This document shows, piece by piece, positions 10,292-16,392 of a stretch of DNA of 52,358 nucleotides (the stretch's first letter is position 1; the number at the start of each line of letters is the position of its first letter). Where the stretch lies: IMG/VR virus record IMGVR_UViG_3300043419_001551, positions 1-52,358 of that record; one strand, given 5' to 3'. The translations under genes and the position numbers were made by a program. The notes beneath the pieces were generated by a model, which made no database searches, was not told the DNA's origin, and was given only the letters and a program-made list of their open reading frames with translations. The DNA is from a virus. Its lineage: Duplodnaviria > Caudoviricetes.

Positions 10292-10958
10292 TGAACCTAA
10301 CGACAAGGACGCCGCTCTCGACCGGCTGAAGCATCGACCGACCGAGAAGGAAACGGACGCCGGCCTCGTCGGCCGTCCGACACCGGCCTTCGTCGGCGAA
10401 GCCAAGGCGTTCTCCATGCCTCCGCCGCCCACGAACTCGTCGAAGACGACCGTCGAGGAGATGGGCAAGATTCGGCGAATGCTCAAGGACCTGAGCGACG
10501 CTCAGATTTTTCGCATCCGACACGAGGATAGGCCGGACGTCGAGACCTTGTTCGTCGAGCTGCTCGAAGAGTACGGCTTCACGGTCACAAAGCGACTCCG
10601 TAAGGAATTGGACGAACTCGCCAAGCAACTTGCGACCATCGGGTGGCACTACAAGACTCGATTCAAGAGGATGCGGCCGCAGGAGTGGCTCAAGCACAAG
10701 CGGTTCAAGACCATCCTTCCGCCTTCCAAGACCGCGAACTCGCCGTCCTACCCGTCGAACCACGCCCTTATCGGGGCGTTCTTGGCAAAGTATCTCGGTG
10801 AGAAGTTCCCGAGAGCAAAGCCCACGCTCGACGAGTTCGGCCGGCAGGTCGGCTGGAACCGGGTTCGGGCCGGATGGCACTGGCCTTCGGACTACGCCAT
10901 GGGGCGGCAACTTGCCGAGCACCTGTGGAAGCACTTTGACGAGAAGGGGATCAAGTGA
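10281..10958 (+). CDS. PAP2-superfamily phosphatase/haloperoxidase-like protein
   Basis: KxxxxxxRP, SYPSNH and RVRAGWHWPSD motifs; GGAGG RBS before GTG 10281. Confidence 0.8.
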   Translation: MGPNEPNDKDAALDRLKHRPTEKETDAGLVGRPTPAFVGEAKAFSMPPPPTNSSKTTVEEMGKIRRMLKDLSDAQIFRIRHEDRPDVETLFVELLEEYGFTVTKRLRKELDELAKQLATIGWHYKTRFKRMRPQEWLKHKRFKTILPPSKTANSPSYPSNHALIGAFLAKYLGEKFPRAKPTLDEFGRQVGWNRVRAGWHWPSDYAMGRQLAEHLWKHFDEKGIK

Positions 10959-11650
10959 GCGCACGAATCGTCGCCACCACTCAGCCCGCCCCGTGGCTCG
11001 TCGAGCGAGGCGTGAAGACCGCCGAGCACCTCATCATCTACACGGCCCGCGTATCCAACCCCGACAACCAGGACAACGTCGAGACCGGCGCGGGTCTGTT
11101 GAAGTACTGCATCCGTAAGGGTCACTGGTCCGTCTTTGAGACCGCCAGCATGACCGTCGAAATCGAGACGACCCGCGCCATCGCGGCCCAAATCCTGCGG
11201 CATCGGTCGTTCACGTTCCAAGAGTTCTCGCAGCGATACGCGAGGACGACCGATAAGGCAGCGACGACCAAGGCTCGAATGCAGGACGCGAAAAACCGGC
11301 AGTCCTCGCTTCCGTGCGAGTCCGAAGAGACGGTTTGGTGGTGGGAGCAGGAACAGCGTCGAGCGTTCCATGCGGCGGAAGAAGCCTACGCCGCGGCCCT
11401 TTCCCGAGGCATCGCCAAGGAGGTGGCCCGTATGGTCCTTCCGATGGCCACGCCGACTCGCTTGTACATGACCGGCTCGGTGCGGTCTTGGATTCACTAC
11501 CTCAAGGCCCGTCTCGACCCTGCGACTCAGCTTGAGCACAGGCTCGTGGCTGAGCAGATAGCCAACATCTTCGACGACGAATTCCCTGTCGTTGCGGCAG
11601 CTTGCGGTGTGTGGAAAAAAGTCGTTGACCTGTACGACGAGGAAGCCTAA
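10955..11650 (+). CDS. thyX: FAD-dependent thymidylate synthase
   Basis: GHWSVFE and the RHRSFTFQEFSQRY ThyX signature. Confidence 0.95.
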   Translation: MSARIVATTQPAPWLVERGVKTAEHLIIYTARVSNPDNQDNVETGAGLLKYCIRKGHWSVFETASMTVEIETTRAIAAQILRHRSFTFQEFSQRYARTTDKAATTKARMQDAKNRQSSLPCESEETVWWWEQEQRRAFHAAEEAYAAALSRGIAKEVARMVLPMATPTRLYMTGSVRSWIHYLKARLDPATQLEHRLVAEQIANIFDDEFPVVAAACGVWKKVVDLYDEEA

Positions 11651-12430: not shown

Positions 12431-15301
12431 ATGAGAGTCGTCGCCTTCGACACCGAGACTCATCTCATCCAGCCCGGTCTTCTCACGCCGAAGCTCGTGT
12501 GCGTGTCGGTAGCTGATGAAAACGGCGTATGGCTGCACGACCGGCGCTACGGCACCGACTACGTCGAGATGCTGCTCGGTGACCCCGATGTCGCGCTCGT
12601 CGGCCACAACGTCGCCTATGACCTCGGGGTTCTATGCGCTCGTCGTCCCGAGCTGATTCCTCTCGTTTTCCAAGCCTACGAGCAGGGCCGCATCTGGGAT
12701 ACCAAGGTCCGTCAGGAGCTCCTCGACATCGCCTCCGGTCGTAGCCAGCGCAACGGTGCGACCTTCGCACTCCGCAACGGCGAGTGGGTCAAGGCAGGCT
12801 ACTCGCTCGCCGGTCTTGCCGGTCACTACCTCGGGAAGGACCGCTTCGCCGAGAAGACCGATGAGAACGCCTGGCGGATGCGCTACCACGAGCTGGAAGA
12901 CGTGCCGCTCGACCAGTGGCCCGTCGAGGCGACGGCCTACGCCAAGGAAGACGCCGAGGACACGCTCGCCATCTTCCTGAAGCAGGGCGGCGTGGACGGG
13001 GCAGTACCCACCGAGCAGGAACAGGTCCGAGCGGCGTGGGCGCTGCACCTCATGAGCGTGTGGGGCGTGCGAACCGACGCGACCTCGGTGGCGGACCTCG
13101 AACAGCGACTCCTCACCGAACAGGCCCGTCTTCGCAAGCGAGTCATTCAGGCCGGCATCCTCGTTCCCAAGCGCGTCCCCGAAGACGAGGCCGAGTTCCA
13201 TGAAGAGGTCACGAAGCGTCGGAAGGCCACGAAGAAGGACCTTCAGCCCGCGCTCGACGGCTCGACGCCGGAGATTGAGTACGAGGACGGTGTTCCGTAT
13301 GTCGTCACGCGGACCACGGTCCCGATGCGCTGGGCGAAAGACAGCAAGAAAATCGAGGCGTACACCCAGCGTTACCTGACCCGTCGAGGCATGGACGTCG
13401 AGCTGACGGCGACGGGTCGCGTGAGCACAGCCAAGGACACGCTCAAGCAGACCGGCTCGCTGCTTCTCGACCTCGTGGCCGATGGCGGCGGCGTGGACAA
13501 AGTGCTCGGCACCTACGTTCCGGTGCTGAAGGACGGCACGCAGCGGCCCATCAACGCGCGGTTCAACGTCCTCGTGAACTCGGGCCGGACGAGCTGCGTC
13601 TCGGGCGACACGCTCGTTCGCACGAGCACTGGCTACAAGCCGATGCTGGCCGTTCAGATTGGCGATCTCGTTTGGACGCACAAGAACCGCTTCCGTCCCG
13701 TGACGCGGTTCCTGCACCAAGGCATCAGGGACGTTGTGGAACTGACGTTTAGCAACGGGAATGTTTTGGTTTGCACAACAGACCATAGGCTGCTAGGCTC
13801 CGATGGACGGTGGGTTACCGTCGAGGAGCTTGTCAATGAGCATCAGCAAGAAGTGGGTTGCGGACCCAGAGAATCAGGCCAAGGCTACAAAGCTGTATCG
13901 CGAAACGTCGAAGACGATGCAGGAAATTGCGGCCGAGCTTCAGACGACGCTACACAACGTCGGGGCGGTTCTAGATCAGTACATCCCGCCGCAGGAAAGG
14001 CAGCGGCTTGCGTCAGTTCGGTATCATCTGTCGAAGGTCGGCAGCAAGAATCCGATGAAGGGCAAGACTCGCGAGCAGCATCACAACTGGCTCGGAGCGG
14101 TGGACGACGGCTACGGTTATCTGACCATCCTACACGAGGGGAAGAGGCAGTTCGTGCATCGGATTGTGATGGCTCAGGCACTGGGGTTGGCGGAACTGCC
14201 CGAGGACCTTGCGGTGCATCACATCGATGGGGACAAGAAGAACAACAGTCTGGACAATCTGGCCTTGGTCACGAAGCGCGGACATCGGATGATTCACACG
14301 CTTCAGAAGACAACAACCGAGGAGTTGTTCTTGAAGCGTGCCACCATCGGGGAAGCCATGAAGTATTTGACCTCACAGTCTTAGACGACGAGAGTTACGA
14401 GGCCATGGGACTGTTTTCCCATAATTGCTCTCTTCCCAACCTCCAGAACCTCCCCTCGGGTCGAAAGGTCGGCGGGACTCGGGAGTGCTTCGTCCCCCGC
14501 GACGGCTACGTCTTCGTGTCGGTGGACTACGACACGCTGGAGCTCCGCGCTCTCGCTCAGGTCTGCCTGACGTTGTTCGGCAAGAGCGAGATGGCGGCTA
14601 GCATCAACAACGACCGCGACCTCCACTCGCAGGTCGGCGCGACGATGCTCGGCATGACCTACGAGGACGTCGAGAAGGGGAAGAAGGTCAAGGGTTCTCC
14701 AGCCAAGACCGCCCGAGATGCCGCCAAGGTCTTCAATTTCGGCGCTCCCGGTGGTCTCGGTGCCGCGTCCCTAGTCGACTACGCCCGTGCTGGCTACGGG
14801 GTTACCATCAACGAGCAGCAGGCCCGGGAGATGAAGGCCCAGTGGCTCAAGGCGTGGCCGGAGATGGTGACCTACTTCGAGTGGGTCAATCATGCCGTAG
14901 GCTTGGGCGAGGCGGTCCTGCGGCACCCTATCACCGGCTTCGTTCGCGGGGATGTGGGCTACACGGACGGCTGTAACCACCTGTTCCAGCACCTCGCCGC
15001 CCAAGGGGCCAAGAGGGCGCTCTTTCAGGCGGCACTCGAAGCCTACGCCGACCCGACCTCGGCCTTCTACGGGTCGCGTCCGGTGGTCTTCGTTCACGAC
15101 GAGATCATCGCCGAGGTGCCAAAGGACCGTGCCGCCGCCGCTTCAGCCCGTTTGGCGCAGATTATGTGCGCGAAGATGGCCGAAATCATCCCCGACGTGA
15201 AGATCACTGCCTCGCCCACGCTCATGCACTACTGGACGAAGGACGCCGTTGAAACCTACGACGCGAACGGAACGCTGATTCCGTGGGAGAAGACCCGATG
15301 A
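12431..15301 (+). CDS. polA: Family A DNA polymerase (3'-5' exonuclease plus polymerase), intein-containing precursor
   Basis: Exo motifs AFDTET, GHNVAYD, YAKED; GRTS/CSLPNLQNLP; motif A DYDTLELR, motif B RDAAKVFNFG, motif C VHDE. Confidence 0.92.
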   Translation: MRVVAFDTETHLIQPGLLTPKLVCVSVADENGVWLHDRRYGTDYVEMLLGDPDVALVGHNVAYDLGVLCARRPELIPLVFQAYEQGRIWDTKVRQELLDIASGRSQRNGATFALRNGEWVKAGYSLAGLAGHYLGKDRFAEKTDENAWRMRYHELEDVPLDQWPVEATAYAKEDAEDTLAIFLKQGGVDGAVPTEQEQVRAAWALHLMSVWGVRTDATSVADLEQRLLTEQARLRKRVIQAGILVPKRVPEDEAEFHEEVTKRRKATKKDLQPALDGSTPEIEYEDGVPYVVTRTTVPMRWAKDSKKIEAYTQRYLTRRGMDVELTATGRVSTAKDTLKQTGSLLLDLVADGGGVDKVLGTYVPVLKDGTQRPINARFNVLVNSGRTSCVSGDTLVRTSTGYKPMLAVQIGDLVWTHKNRFRPVTRFLHQGIRDVVELTFSNGNVLVCTTDHRLLGSDGRWVTVEELVNEHQQEVGCGPRESGQGYKAVSRNVEDDAGNCGRASDDATQRRGGSRSVHPAAGKAAACVSSVSSVEGRQQESDEGQDSRAASQLARSGGRRLRLSDHPTRGEEAVRASDCDGSGTGVGGTARGPCGASHRWGQEEQQSGQSGLGHEARTSDDSHASEDNNRGVVLEACHHRGSHEVFDLTVLDDESYEAMGLFSHNCSLPNLQNLPSGRKVGGTRECFVPRDGYVFVSVDYDTLELRALAQVCLTLFGKSEMAASINNDRDLHSQVGATMLGMTYEDVEKGKKVKGSPAKTARDAAKVFNFGAPGGLGAASLVDYARAGYGVTINEQQAREMKAQWLKAWPEMVTYFEWVNHAVGLGEAVLRHPITGFVRGDVGYTDGCNHLFQHLAAQGAKRALFQAALEAYADPTSAFYGSRPVVFVHDEIIAEVPKDRAAAASARLAQIMCAKMAEIIPDVKITASPTLMHYWTKDAVETYDANGTLIPWEKTR
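13595..14425 (+). mobile_element. Intein (277 aa) in the DNA polymerase
   Basis: Block A CVSGDTLV, block B CTTDHRL, block F VFDLTV, terminal HN followed by C+1; removing it restores the GRTS-CSLPNLQN motif. Confidence 0.93.
13836..14384 (+). CDS. HNH homing endonuclease nested in the +1 frame inside the intein
   Basis: GAGGAG RBS 7 nt before ATG; HTH-like N-terminus, GSKNPMKGK (NUMOD3-like), HRIVM...VHHIDGDKKNNSLDNL HNH motif. Confidence 0.9.
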   Translation: MSISKKWVADPENQAKATKLYRETSKTMQEIAAELQTTLHNVGAVLDQYIPPQERQRLASVRYHLSKVGSKNPMKGKTREQHHNWLGAVDDGYGYLTILHEGKRQFVHRIVMAQALGLAELPEDLAVHHIDGDKKNNSLDNLALVTKRGHRMIHTLQKTTTEELFLKRATIGEAMKYLTSQS

Positions 15302-16392
15302 AGATCATCGTGAAGAAGACCGACCTTGCCGCCATCCTGCACCGTGCCACGACCGTGACCGAGACGAAGGCTACCATGCCCATCCTCTCGGCGGTCCTGC
15401 TGGAGGACATCGGCGACGGCATGACCGTCCGGGCCTACGACCTCGAGGTCGGGTACTTCGGCTTCGTCACCGGCGAGGTGTCGAAGCCCGGTAAGGTTGC
15501 CGTGAACGCGAAGACTTTGGGCGAGGTCGTCAAGGGCTTGCCCGAGGCCACGGTCACCTTGTCGGCTGAGAAGAACCGGCTCGTCGTGACCTCGGGCGGC
15601 AGCGAGTACCGGCTGTCGACCTTGTCCGCCGAGGAGTACCCCGCGCTGCCCGAGAAGTCGGACGGCATCGACTTTCGGCTAAAGGCCCGCGACTTCGCCT
15701 CGGTCCTCGGTCGGGTCGGCTACGCTCAGTCCACCGACGAGACGCGCTACTCGCTTAACGGCACGCTGCTCGAAGGTGCGGACGGCGTTCTCGGGACCAC
15801 GGCGACGGACGGTCACCGGCTCGTCCACTCGGGCCTGCGGTGCGGTGCTCCCGACTTCAAGGGCGTCATCGTCAGCCGCAAGACCACCCGCCTCCTGCGG
15901 TCCATCCTCGACACGCTCGGCGAGACCGAGGTGTCGGTGACCGTGAGCGAGAACGCCATCGCGCTCGACACGGAGCACGAGCGGGTCGTCGCTCGGCTCA
16001 TCGACGGCGCGTACCCCGACTACGTTGGCATCTACCCCGAGACCGAAGCCAAGAGCACGCTCGACGTGAAGGAGCTGTCGTCGGTGCTCGGTCGTCTCAA
16101 GGTCGTCTCCGACTCGACGAAGTGGACCGTGGGCGGCGGCGTGGTCAAGTTCCGAGCCTTCGACCCCGACCTCGGGGAGGTCGAGGATTGGATGCACCAC
16201 GGCAACGACGCCAAAGACGTGACCTTCGGTGTGAACGGGGCCTACATTCGCGAGGCCGTGTCGGTCGTGACCGGCGGGTCGGTGGACGTGTTCTTCCCTG
16301 CCGACGACCTCACGCCGGTCGTCCTGCGGTACCCGGGGCTGTCCGATGGGCTGGAGGACTACGCCATCGTCATGCCCATGCGGGTGAAGTGA
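15298..16392 (+). CDS. dnaN: DNA polymerase III beta subunit (sliding clamp)
   Basis: MPILSAVLL, AYDLE, STDETRYSLNG, ATDGHRL, RLIDGAYPDY, IVMPMRV; full length. Confidence 0.92.
   Translation: MKIIVKKTDLAAILHRATTVTETKATMPILSAVLLEDIGDGMTVRAYDLEVGYFGFVTGEVSKPGKVAVNAKTLGEVVKGLPEATVTLSAEKNRLVVTSGGSEYRLSTLSAEEYPALPEKSDGIDFRLKARDFASVLGRVGYAQSTDETRYSLNGTLLEGADGVLGTTATDGHRLVHSGLRCGAPDFKGVIVSRKTTRLLRSILDTLGETEVSVTVSENAIALDTEHERVVARLIDGAYPDYVGIYPETEAKSTLDVKELSSVLGRLKVVSDSTKWTVGGGVVKFRAFDPDLGEVEDWMHHGNDAKDVTFGVNGAYIREAVSVVTGGSVDVFFPADDLTPVVLRYPGLSDGLEDYAIVMPMRVK

What the first reader, a model, noticed from the sequence alone, without database searches (positions are those of the whole stretch)
13595..14425. 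Intein whose homing endonuclease is a separate overlapping gene in the +1 frame
Seen: the polymerase frame stays open through a complete intein (C1...HN/C+1). Its central ~180 residues read as low-complexity Arg/Ser/Gly-rich sequence with no endonuclease motif. The same DNA in the +1 frame (13836-14384) encodes a coherent 182-aa HTH/NUMOD3-like/HNH protein with its own GAGGAG RBS and stop, entirely between splicing blocks B and F. So 549 nt are dual-coding, and splicing and homing functions are translated independently. Known: canonical inteins carry the endonuclease in frame. From memory, alternate-frame endonucleases have been noted in some actinobacteriophage inteins, so novelty needs checking. 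Inference: a snapshot of a free-standing HNH gene invading a mini-intein.
Basis: partly seen in the sequence, partly recalled or inferred. Interest (0 to 1): 0.88.

Follow-up and report, generated by a model that had tools for sequence, protein, structure and literature searches.

The report
Polymerase intein with overlapping out-of-frame nuclease
A self-splicing protein insert (intein) in this lake phage's DNA polymerase carries its mobility nuclease as a separate gene in a shifted reading frame of the same DNA; the layout is real, under selection and shared by many phages, but this kind of intein was first described in 2025-2026 preprints.

Summary
Observation confirmed. The family-A DNA polymerase ORF (12431-15301) stays open through a class-1 intein (13595-14425). 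A 182-aa HNH_3 endonuclease gene (13836-14384) lies in the +1 frame.

It is not an assembly error. All 16 distinct sequences analysed (window plus 15 divergent IMG/VR phages, GC 0.43-0.62) have the same layout at the same polymerase site, with 0 frame-0 stops. Synonymous shuffling predicts 3.3-11.7 stops. An independent metagenome contig matches without indels.

Codon-position variability shows selection on the HNH frame in the middle and on the intein frame at both ends. AlphaFold gives a confident HNH (pLDDT 86). The frame-0 product is a mini-intein fold with a 153-residue disordered loop.

The closest polymerases (83-96% identical) lack the intein. One sample holds both alleles.

The nearest non-intein relatives of the HNH are group I intron endonucleases (I-PfoP3I type). 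Those introns interrupt polymerase genes at the same motif, 12 nt downstream in Pf-WMP3.

The "snapshot of invasion" reading is not supported: the family is old and large.

The architecture is already described for other nucleases (bioRxiv 10.1101/2025.01.02.630785; 10.64898/2026.09.14.751524). This scan has noted similar polymerase inteins on other DNA. Verdict: new member of a known kind.

The parts
12431..15301 (+). Family-A DNA polymerase precursor ORF (956 aa, stop included), with 3'-5' exonuclease and polymerase domains
   Evidence: ORF. Pfam DNA_pol_A 5.7e-25 and DNA_pol_A_exo1 6.7e-12.
12431..13594 (+). N-extein (388 aa), ending ...NVLVNSGRTS
   Evidence: The intein-less relative P0002 reads NSGRTSCSEPNLQNLP across the site.
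13595..14425 (+). Class-1 intein, 277 aa: C1, block B T61..H64, block F D259, H276-N277
   Evidence: (residues invariant in 16 of 16).
13595..13855 (+). N-terminal splicing (Hint) part, intein residues 1-87
   Evidence: pLDDT 92-97 for residues 1-80; the third codon position of frame 0 is the most variable.
13856..14314 (+). Frame-0 read-through of the nuclease gene, intein residues 88-240: a disordered Gly/Ser/Ala/Arg-rich loop kept free of stops
   Evidence: pLDDT below 50; stop avoidance; 0 of 755 risky codon pairs carry T; frame-0 position 1 most variable.
14315..14425 (+). C-terminal splicing part, intein residues 241-277 (blocks F and G, ending SHN)
   Evidence: (pLDDT 82-95).
13823..13828 (+). 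GAGGAG Shine-Dalgarno-like motif, 7 nt before the HNH start; it lies inside intein codons V-E-E
   Evidence: by my reading of the printed upstream sequences, a GGAG-like motif 6-10 nt upstream in about 11 of 16 family members.
13836..14384 (+). HNH homing-endonuclease gene in the +1 frame (182 aa plus TAG)
   Evidence: PF13392; phrog_7545, 3.9e-22; pLDDT 86.4; coding-type codon variability; conserved start codon.
13836..14033 (+). N-terminal helical, HTH-like putative DNA-binding domain of the HNH protein (residues 1-66)
   Evidence: helices, pLDDT 92-98. Z 5-6 to many HTH domains, which is weak.
14094..14315 (+). HNH (beta-beta-alpha-metal) nuclease domain, residues 87-160, with HHIDG...NN..DNL...H..IH
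   Evidence: invariant H128 H129 D131 N136 N137 N141 H150 H154. I-HmuI 1u3e, Z 6.6, rmsd 2.2, 70 aligned, 33% identity.
14426..15301 (+). C-extein, starting CSLPNLQNLP and followed by motif A (VDYDTLELR)
14435..14448 (+). Inferred target region. It is equivalent to the -3..+11 recognition stretch of the homologue I-PfoP3I around the P|N junction, 12 nt downstream of the intein insertion point
   Evidence: Inference (PMC3428280, section 10). Not tested.

Best explanation
This is a mobile class-1 intein in the family-A DNA polymerase gene of an uncultured freshwater phage. Its homing endonuclease is not a domain of the intein protein. It is an independent 182-aa HNH gene written in the +1 frame over the intein's middle.

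Shown: both frames are conserved and selected as described below.

Inferred steps:
1. The polymerase mRNA is translated in frame 0 into a 956-aa precursor.
2. The two Hint halves (residues 1-87 and 241-277) fold around a 153-residue disordered loop, which is merely the read-through of the nuclease gene.
3. They splice out by the standard route (Cys1, TxxH, His-Asn, Cys+1) to give a 679-aa polymerase.
4. Ribosomes also start internally at ATG 13836, behind GAGGAG, and make the HNH enzyme (HTH-like DNA-binding domain plus C-terminal HNH).
5. In a mixed infection that enzyme nicks or cuts the intein-less polymerase allele near the GRTS|CSxPNLQN coding DNA.
6. Recombinational repair copies the intein plus nuclease gene into it.

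Frame 0 is kept open only by synonymous codon choice in the HNH gene: no codon ending in T stands before a codon starting AA, AG or GA.

The nuclease belongs to a lineage that otherwise rides group I introns at the same polymerase motif. The composite therefore most likely arose when such a gene entered a mini-intein sitting at its own target. It has since been stably maintained.
For: Anatomy.

Family:
- Of the 38 loci, 17 matched the full intein.
- All 18 sequences, window included, have 0 frame-0 stops, a 181-257-aa homologous +1 ORF (stop to stop) and 11-31 stops in the third frame, at GC 0.43-0.62.
- In all 18 the intein sits at the same polymerase site...GR(x)S|C...HN|(C/S)xxPN.QN.

Selection to keep frame 0 open:
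- Synonymous shuffles (5000 each, 16 distinct sequences) expect 3.3-11.7 frame-0 stops and 0 are observed. P(0) is at most 0.018 in each and under 1/5000 for the window.
- The other alternative frame has 9-21 stops, near the expected 7.5-17.
- 0 of 755 'risky' codon pairs have T at the third position, against 503 of 2162 other pairs. In 8 intron-borne homologues it is 157 of 408.
- Those 8 homologues have 11-25 stops in the equivalent frame.

Selection on each frame:
- Pairwise variability at frame-0 codon positions 1/2/3 is 0.45/0.37/0.64 in the N-splicing part, 0.61/0.43/0.33 in the middle and 0.23/0.18/0.56 in the C-splicing part.
- In the HNH frame it is 0.43/0.33/0.60.
- Mean identity is 49% for the HNH and 24% for the frame-0 middle.

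Start codon:
- There is an ATG, GTG or TTG at the aligned position in 15 of 16, and an ATG two codons upstream in the 16th.
- The +1 frame is closed 6 or fewer codons upstream in 10 of 16.

Folds:
- HNH pLDDT 86.4; I-HmuI is the top structural match.
- The frame-0 model matches mini-inteins at E 2e-8 with target-normalised TM 0.74-0.85, and its loop 88-240 is below pLDDT 50.

Not an error: a contig from another study (X3) covers 13745-14478 with 9 mismatches and 0 gaps.

Mobility:
- The 29 next-best polymerases (P0002-P0030, 83-96% identity, 658-689 aa) are too short to hold the intein. P0002 reads straight through the site.
- 8 of 8 related DNA loci are uninterrupted at the site.
- X3 also holds an intein-less joint, 13590->14435, coding GRTSCSEP.
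- The codons flanking the intein differ from those of intein-less relatives, with Ser codon-family switches on both sides and E to L.
- Family exteins are only 26-44% identical to the window's in short local alignments, while the HNHs are 45-58% identical over their full length.

Origin:
- 8 of 8 non-intein homologues examined lie inside split polymerase genes at the GRLSSSxP(NL) motif.
- The tree separates 16 intein-borne from 8 intron-borne HNHs at 100/100 support.
Against: - Nothing here shows splicing, translation of the HNH ORF or DNA cleavage directly.
- A GGAG-like motif is missing upstream of the start in about 5 of 16 members (my reading).
- The Pfam intein models hit below their cut-offs: Intein_splicing 24.0 against 35.8 bits, Hint_2 21.5 against 28.4.
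- If the enzyme recognises the stretch equivalent to I-PfoP3I's site, that stretch is intact in the intein-bearing allele. Self-protection is then unexplained. Related intron HNHs are reported to cut both alleles (PMC3428280, passages).
- The 16 sequences are relatives, so their zero-stop counts are not fully independent.
- The only RNA-library evidence (X20) is contigs of a 93%-similar relative, and such a library may contain DNA.
- The direction of the intron/intein vehicle switch is not resolved, because the tree is unrooted.
Confidence: 0.85

Rival explanations
1. Assembly or sequencing artefact: two compensating indels hide an ordinary in-frame HNH intein.
For: The window is a metagenome-assembled virus record. 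In-frame HNH inteins do exist at this very site in other polymerases (P0119).
Against: The same two-frame layout is present in 15 other distinct, divergent assemblies. An independent contig from another study covers the whole HNH ORF and both frame boundaries with 0 gaps. The HNH ORF has a conserved start codon, and the +1 frame is closed just upstream of it. P0119's splicing domain is unrelated, with no significant match.
Confidence: 0.01
2. The HNH is made by programmed ribosomal frameshifting from the intein frame, as a fusion to the N-extein and N-intein, and not by internal initiation.
For: Initiation inside a translated ORF is expected to be inefficient. About 5 of 16 members lack a clear Shine-Dalgarno-like motif.
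Against: A start codon stands at the aligned first residue in 16 of 16. The +1 frame has a stop 1-6 codons upstream of that start in 10 of 16, leaving almost no room for a shift site. HNH homology begins at the start codon. The intron-borne homologues are ordinary free ORFs.
Confidence: 0.04
3. The nested HNH no longer drives homing. The intein is inherited vertically, and the nuclease is inactive or serves another role, for example excluding co-infecting phages.
For: No cleavage data. The inferred recognition stretch is not disrupted by the intein. The dnaX preprint reports long-term coexistence of intein-plus and intein-minus alleles (abstract).
Against: Purifying selection acts on the whole HNH ORF, and the catalytic H/N residues are invariant in 16 of 16. 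The intein is absent from the 29 closest polymerases but present in polymerases under 50% identical. Both alleles occur in one sample. The flanks look co-converted.
Confidence: 0.08
4. The insert is a group I intron, or holds one, and is removed at the RNA level, so the open frame 0 is irrelevant.
For: All 8 non-intein homologues examined sit in polymerase genes interrupted at this motif. Some of these are annotated or published as introns.
Against: No Rfam family matched 13300-14700 at E up to 1. Frame 0 is kept open against expectation in all 16, whereas the intron-borne copies have 11-25 stops. Hint splicing blocks directly abut and overlap the HNH ORF, leaving no spare sequence for a ribozyme.
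Confidence: 0.01

Closest known systems
Actinobacteriophage inteins with non-canonical homing endonucleases: endonuclease VII-like gene in 'frame 3', antisense LAGLIDADG and VSR-like genes (Gosselin, Arsenault, Gogarten; bioRxiv 10.1101/2025.01.02.630785). I read the abstract, sections 8 and 15, and passages.
   Same: The splicing domain and the endonuclease are encoded in different frames of the same DNA. The in-frame middle has no recognisable fold. The authors propose an origin by a free-standing endonuclease gene invading an intein, with continuing horizontal transfer.
   Different: The nuclease here is Pfam HNH_3 of the I-PfoP3I/I-HmuI type, in the +1 frame. The host gene is a family-A polymerase, at the PNLQN motif. 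The phage is from freshwater metagenomes and its host is unknown. Their main text lists DNA polymerase III alpha, not family A, among intein hosts. Their Figure 3E and supplementary tables, which I could not see, might hold more.
Cyanobacterial dnaX intein with an out-of-frame (+2 ORF) LAGLIDADG endonuclease (Phillips, DeSimone, Gogarten; bioRxiv 10.64898/2026.09.14.751524). I read the abstract and passages.
   Same: A disordered in-frame middle, a confidently folded endonuclease in an overlapping ORF, frame-dependent selection, coexisting intein-plus and intein-minus alleles, and a proposed secondary invasion of a mini-intein.
   Different: That host gene is cellular (dnaX), the nuclease is LAGLIDADG, and the relative frame differs.
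Group I (IA2) intron of the cyanophage Pf-WMP3 DNA polymerase gene, encoding the nicking HNH endonuclease I-PfoP3I (PMC3428280; passages and section 10). By that paper, the SPO1, SP82 and Bastille introns lie at the same site.
   Same: The HNH is homologous: 33% identity over 88% of the query to Pf-WMP3 and 40% to phage Dor1, with the HNH at the C-terminal end. The target gene and motif are the same: the intron lies after ...SSSKP|N, 12 nt downstream of the intein's S|C point.
   Different: There the vehicle is a ribozyme removed from RNA, and the ORF's alternative frames are full of stops (17 in Pf-WMP3). Here the vehicle is a protein-splicing element, and the overlapping frame must stay open.
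Fractured genes: split inteins flanking a free-standing endonuclease gene (Dassa et al. 2009, PMC2677866). I saw only the search listing and the start of the abstract.
   Same: A free-standing-type endonuclease gene lies between the two intein halves on the same strand.
   Different: Here the host ORF is not broken: there are 0 stops in frame 0, so splicing is in cis. A single C/A/G-to-T change at any of 49 codon pairs would create a frame-0 stop.
ShiLan-type hidden out-of-frame HNH in phage DNA methylase genes (PMC11855218). I read the abstract and outline.
   Same: An out-of-frame HNH gene inside a host ORF that stays open.
   Different: By that abstract, ShiLan has no detectable splicing domains. 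Here a complete intein flanks the HNH.
Canonical intein with an in-frame HNH domain at the same polymerase site (P0119)
   Same: The same insertion point (GRTS|C ... HN|C, then xPNFQNLP) and an HNH_3-type nuclease.
   Different: The HNH is in frame and at the N-terminal end of the insert. It is only 29% identical over 121 aa, and the splicing domain is not detectably related. It is an independent intein lineage.

Membership tests
Class-1 intein (Hint superfamily) | N-terminal nucleophile Cys1 or Ser1 | tested here: met
   TGC at 13595. C1 is invariant in 16 of 16.
Class-1 intein (Hint superfamily) | Block B TxxH | tested here: met
   T61-T-D-H64. T61 and H64 are invariant in A1 and H64 in A3.
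Class-1 intein (Hint superfamily) | C-terminal His-Asn followed by a +1 Cys, Ser or Thr | tested here: met
   H276 and N277 are invariant. The +1 residue is Cys or Ser in every locus; the window has Cys.
Class-1 intein (Hint superfamily) | Hint fold | tested here: met
   Residues 1-87 and 241-277 have pLDDT above 90. Foldseek matches the Ssp DnaB and Npu DnaB mini-inteins at E 2e-8 to 4e-7, TM by target 0.74-0.80.
Class-1 intein (Hint superfamily) | Pfam intein models above the gathering score | tested here: inconclusive
   Intein_splicing 24.0 against 35.8 bits and Hint_2 21.5 against 28.4. These are sub-threshold hits on a domain split by a 153-residue insert. This is a detection criterion, not a defining property.
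Class-1 intein (Hint superfamily) | Protein splicing activity | not testable with these tools
   Needs expression of the precursor.
HNH_3 / I-HmuI-like homing endonucleases | Pfam PF13392 above the gathering score | tested here: met
   E 6.7e-14, 51.7 bits against 24.8. phrog_7545 'HNH endonuclease' at 3.9e-22.
HNH_3 / I-HmuI-like homing endonucleases | Conserved His and Asn residues of the HNH motif | tested here: met
   H128, H129, D131, N136, N137, N141, H150 and H154 are invariant in 16 of 16. Their catalytic roles are assigned from general knowledge and were not tested.
HNH_3 / I-HmuI-like homing endonucleases | Beta-beta-alpha-metal fold like I-HmuI | tested here: met
   1u3e is the top hit in both searches: Foldseek E 0.021, probability 1.00; VIA Z 6.6, rmsd 2.2, 70 aligned, 33% identity. 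The Z is middling, so this supports the sequence evidence and does not stand alone.
HNH_3 / I-HmuI-like homing endonucleases | Site-specific nicking or cleavage of the element-free allele | not testable with these tools
   Needs an enzyme assay.
[quoted passage not shown] | Endonuclease ORF in another frame between the splicing blocks, with the extein/intein frame open | tested here: met
[quoted passage not shown] | Purifying selection on the endonuclease frame, not on the overlapping intein frame | tested here: met
   Codon-position variability and identities.
[quoted passage not shown] | Same nuclease family and host gene as the published cases | tested here: not met
   The published cases are endonuclease VII-like, LAGLIDADG and VSR-like. 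Here it is HNH_3 in a family-A polymerase. It is a separate family of the same kind.
Fractured gene / split intein | Host gene broken into two ORFs | tested here: not met
   0 frame-0 stops in the window and in all 17 related loci.
Group I intron carrying an HNH ORF | Recognisable intron RNA, with no need for an open host frame | tested here: not met
   No Rfam match at E up to 1. Frame 0 is selectively kept open.

The most novel reading that the evidence does not exclude
One HNH lineage that specialises on the polymerase 'SxxPNLQN' coding DNA has switched splicing vehicle between a group I intron and a mini-intein inserted 12 nt apart at the same target. This would be a protein-level counterpart of the 'collaborative homing' route proposed for mobile introns (that name and proposal are recalled, not read here). 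The resulting overlapped composite is an evolutionarily stable design, kept intact by a simple synonymous-codon rule. It sits one point mutation from a fractured gene with a split intein, so this family could be the direct source of such split polymerase genes.
Probability: 0.4. Interest if true: 0.6.

Novelty: new member of a known kind. Interest (0 to 1): 0.4.

Why it matters
The finding gives a large, divergent and clean data set for a recently recognised intein architecture. There are 16 DNA sequences here, and 138 of the 150 best 50%-identity cluster representatives match the whole profile. It also offers an unusually simple read-out of selection on an overlapping frame: 0 of 755 against 157 of 408 T-ending codons.

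It ties the nested nuclease to the intron endonucleases that attack the same polymerase motif. That supports the view that homing endonuclease genes move between introns and inteins as independent modules.

For annotation it matters because gene callers report one long 'polymerase' and miss the nested nuclease gene.

It is not a new principle.

Tried and rejected
- DNA-level search of the phage collection with 13400-14600 found nothing.
- The first single-sequence scan of viral contigs gave only unrelated inteins sharing the N-terminal block. The alignment-based scan was needed.
- 21 of the 38 loci matched only the N-terminal 91 or fewer residues. These are other inteins and were not analysed further, except L001 and L002.
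- L015 (identical to L013) and L018 (identical to L010) were dropped as duplicates.
- In one search, L045 (same contig as L043), L052 and L053 (truncated) were left out.
- The profile search of solved structures by sequence gave only weak hits: pyocin AP41 at 0.063 and I-HmuI at 0.093.
- Foldseek with the whole HNH model had no match at E <= 0.001. The domain-level VIA search was clearer.
- The HNH profile found no second copy in the phage genome.
- No group I intron or other Rfam family matched.
- Look-up of earlier scan notes by sequence found nothing.
- Runs X5 and X20 cover only parts of the stretch. The uncovered parts say nothing.
- I did not test promoter or terminator motifs, RNA structure around the start, or a complex prediction.
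- I considered that the frame-0 middle might have a function of its own. I found only stop avoidance and the 'shadow' of HNH conservation: 24% identity, with codon position 1 most variable.
- They found the two preprints and the ShiLan paper. They found no report of an HNH_3 out-of-frame intein in a family-A polymerase.

Full report
**What is there**

The window is a complete 52,358-bp IMG/VR virus record with direct terminal repeats. An ORF at 12431-15301 (+, 956 aa) matches Pfam DNA_pol_A (5.7e-25) and the 3'-5' exonuclease domain (6.7e-12). It stays open through an 831-nt insert at 13595-14425. The insert begins with Cys and ends ...SHN, followed by Cys.

In the +1 frame a 549-nt ORF (ATG 13836 to TAG 14384, 182 aa) matches Pfam HNH_3 at E 6.7e-14, above the curated cut-off. 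It also matches phrog_7545 'HNH endonuclease' at 3.9e-22. GAGGAG lies at 13823-13828, 7 nt before the ATG.

Small corrections apply. The ORF's ends overlap the splicing domain, and its stop codon straddles intein codons 263/264 in block F. A NUMOD3 module was not seen in the Pfam scan.

**Is it an error or chance?**

An alignment-based scan of viral contigs returned 38 loci. Seventeen of them match the whole intein.

- All 18 sequences, window included, have no stop in frame 0.
- All have a homologous 181-257-aa ORF (stop to stop) in the +1 frame.
- All have 11-31 stops in the third frame, at GC 0.43-0.62.

After dropping two duplicates I permuted synonymous codons within each HNH ORF, 5000 times for each of 16 sequences. 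The expected number of frame-0 stops is 3.3-11.7 (window 7.2). The observed number is 0 in all. The chance of zero is at most 0.018 per sequence, and 0 of 5000 for the window. The other alternative frame has 9-21 stops, close to expectation.

The mechanism is visible directly. A frame-0 stop needs a T-ending HNH codon before a codon that starts AA, AG or GA. None of 755 such pairs has the T, against 503 of 2162 other pairs. In eight intron-borne homologues 157 of 408 do, and those genes have 11-25 stops in the equivalent frame.

Logan contigs of a run from a different study (X3) cover 13745-14478 with 9 mismatches and no gap. Compensating frameshift errors are excluded.

**Which frame is selected where?**

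| Region | Frame-0 codon position 1 / 2 / 3 variability |
|---|---|
| Intein residues 1-76 | 0.45 / 0.37 / 0.64 |
| Intein residues 85-250 | 0.61 / 0.43 / 0.33 |
| Intein residues 257-277 | 0.23 / 0.18 / 0.56 |

- The middle pattern is the wobble pattern of the +1 frame.
- Aligned in its own frame, the HNH gene gives 0.43/0.33/0.60.
- Mean pairwise identity is 49% for the HNH, 46% and 72% for the two splicing parts, and 24% for the frame-0 middle.
- The HNH motif residues (H128, H129, D131, N136, N137, N141, H150, H154) are invariant. So are C1, H64, D259, H276 and N277 of the intein.

**Folds**

- With the 16-row alignments, AlphaFold2 gives the HNH protein a mean pLDDT of 86.4.
- The nuclease part (residues 87-159) matches I-HmuI, 1u3e, best: VIA Z 6.6, rmsd 2.2, 70 residues, 33% identity; Foldseek E 0.021.
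- Residues 1-66 resemble many HTH domains at Z 5-6, which is weak.
- The frame-0 product folds confidently only at residues 1-87 and 241-277.
- That part matches mini-inteins such as Ssp DnaB and Npu DnaB at E 2e-8 to 4e-7.
- Residues 88-240 are below pLDDT 50.

**How the nuclease is probably made**

A start codon stands at the aligned first residue of the HNH in 15 of 16 sequences (12 ATG, 2 GTG, 1 TTG). In the 16th an ATG lies two codons upstream. The +1 frame is closed 1-6 codons upstream in 10 of 16. That leaves little room for frameshift fusion.

By my reading, a GGAG-like motif lies 6-10 nt upstream in about 11 of 16. Internal initiation is therefore the best-supported route, but it is inferred. 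The only RNA-library data are contigs of a 93%-similar relative and may be DNA carry-over.

**Mobility**

- The 29 best polymerase relatives (P0002-P0030, 83-96% identity, 658-689 aa) are too short to hold the intein. P0002 reads NSGRTSCSEPNLQNLP.
- Eight related DNA loci are uninterrupted at the site.
- In run X3 an intein-less joint (13590->14435, with 13 letters coding the SCSE stretch) occurs beside the intein-bearing contig.
- The codons touching the intein differ from those of the intein-less relatives. Ser codon families switch on both sides and E becomes L, while nearby sequence is almost identical. This looks like a short co-conversion tract.
- The other intein-bearing polymerases are very distant from the window's: 26-44% identity in short local alignments. 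Their HNHs are 45-58% identical over the full length.
- All carry the intein at the homologous point...GR(x)S|C...HN|(C/S)xxPN.QN.
- A close relative of P0077 (P0108; 80% and 92% identity in the flanks) has the same intein without the ~150-residue middle. The nuclease module is therefore gained or lost as a unit.

**Where the nuclease comes from**

The nearest non-intein relatives (33-40% identity) are HNH genes inside interrupted polymerase genes of podophages and others. Eight of eight examined end their upstream exon at GRLSSSxP(NL).

For Pf-WMP3 the paper (PMC3428280, section 10 and passages) reports three things:
- the element is a self-splicing group I intron, at the same site as the SPO1, SP82 and Bastille introns;
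- the enzyme needs positions -3 to +11.

By my alignment that intron site is the P|N junction, 12 nt downstream of the intein's S|C point.

A maximum-likelihood tree separates the 16 intein-borne from the 8 intron-borne HNHs with 100/100 support. That is compatible with one vehicle switch. The direction is unknown because the tree is unrooted.

A different intein with an in-frame, distantly related HNH sits at the same S|C point in another polymerase (P0119). This motif is thus occupied by an intron with an HNH, by an in-frame HNH intein and by this out-of-frame HNH intein.

**Size and age of the family**

A profile of the frame-0 intein, searched against 1.84 billion cluster representatives, gave 276 proteins at E <= 1e-30. 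Of the 150 best, 138 match all 277 profile positions in one stretch of about 277 residues. I have no DNA for these, so the nested ORF is inferred from the colinear 'shadow' region.

Four further polymerases (P0063, P0069, P0071, P0077) show the same colinear middle.

With long terminal branches in the HNH tree (0.25-0.87), this is an old, stable design and not a snapshot of an invasion.

**What is known**

Searches found three relevant works.
- bioRxiv 10.1101/2025.01.02.630785 reports actinobacteriophage inteins with an endonuclease VII-like gene in another frame and with antisense LAGLIDADG or VSR-like genes. It proposes invasion of inteins by free-standing endonuclease genes (abstract, sections 8 and 15).
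- bioRxiv 10.64898/2026.09.14.751524 reports the cyanobacterial dnaX intein with a +2-frame LAGLIDADG gene under purifying selection (abstract and passages).
- PMC11855218 reports out-of-frame HNH genes in methylase genes without an intein (abstract).

This scan's own notebook holds 61 notes in at least 54 genomes on polymerase inteins with out-of-frame HNH genes. None was found to be similar in sequence to this one.

I found no printed report of this HNH_3, family-A-polymerase family, nor of its kinship with the intron endonucleases at the same motif. The 'collaborative homing' papers of Bonocora, Zeng and Shub are recalled and were not read here.

**Verdict**

The 'snapshot' reading is not supported. 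It is a new member of a known kind. Interest is moderate, mainly for the clean selection signal and the intron-intein link.

DNA of the Logan and NCBI relatives P0063-P0077, P0108 and P0119 could therefore not be examined.

Noticed in passing
L044 and L048 (intein-less relatives), about 60 nt on each side of the position homologous to window 13594/14426: These two intein-less polymerase genes carry a ~120-nt AT-rich patch exactly around the homing site. There are 10-11 mismatches per 30 nt to the window, against 0-6 in neighbouring bins. It may be a scar of an earlier intein gain and loss, or a recoded, nuclease-resistant site.
   Followed up: partly
Proteins P0063, P0069, P0077, P0108 (relatives): In these polymerases the ORF ends 40-45 residues after the intein (...ECFVPRE.VEVVEVPDDYVLQ.GEEW, stop), just before motif A. 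The polymerase gene seems to be interrupted a second time there. No DNA was available to see by what.
   Followed up: no
Proteins P0106 and P0116: Related polymerases carry a different, larger intein at a second site (after ...AKCFHPDTE, ending before ANFG). This is another mobile element in the same gene family.
   Followed up: no
Proteins P0049, P0057, P0068: These intein-less polymerases have 10-25 extra residues between GRTS and N(I)QNLP, for example GRTSARGWTDEDGQKYGFNIQNLP. The insertion lies exactly at the homing site and would alter any nuclease target there.
   Followed up: no
L001:2722-7050: One long ORF of an unrelated 165-kb virus contig appears to hold two inteins sharing this intein's N-terminal block. 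By eye, the second has an in-frame non-HNH insert. Not analysed.
   Followed up: no
window 10955-11650 and 15283-16392: By eye, the polymerase gene is flanked by a ThyX-like thymidylate synthase ORF (RHRSFTFQEFSQRY motif) and a beta-clamp-like ORF. Neither was checked with a family search.
   Followed up: no
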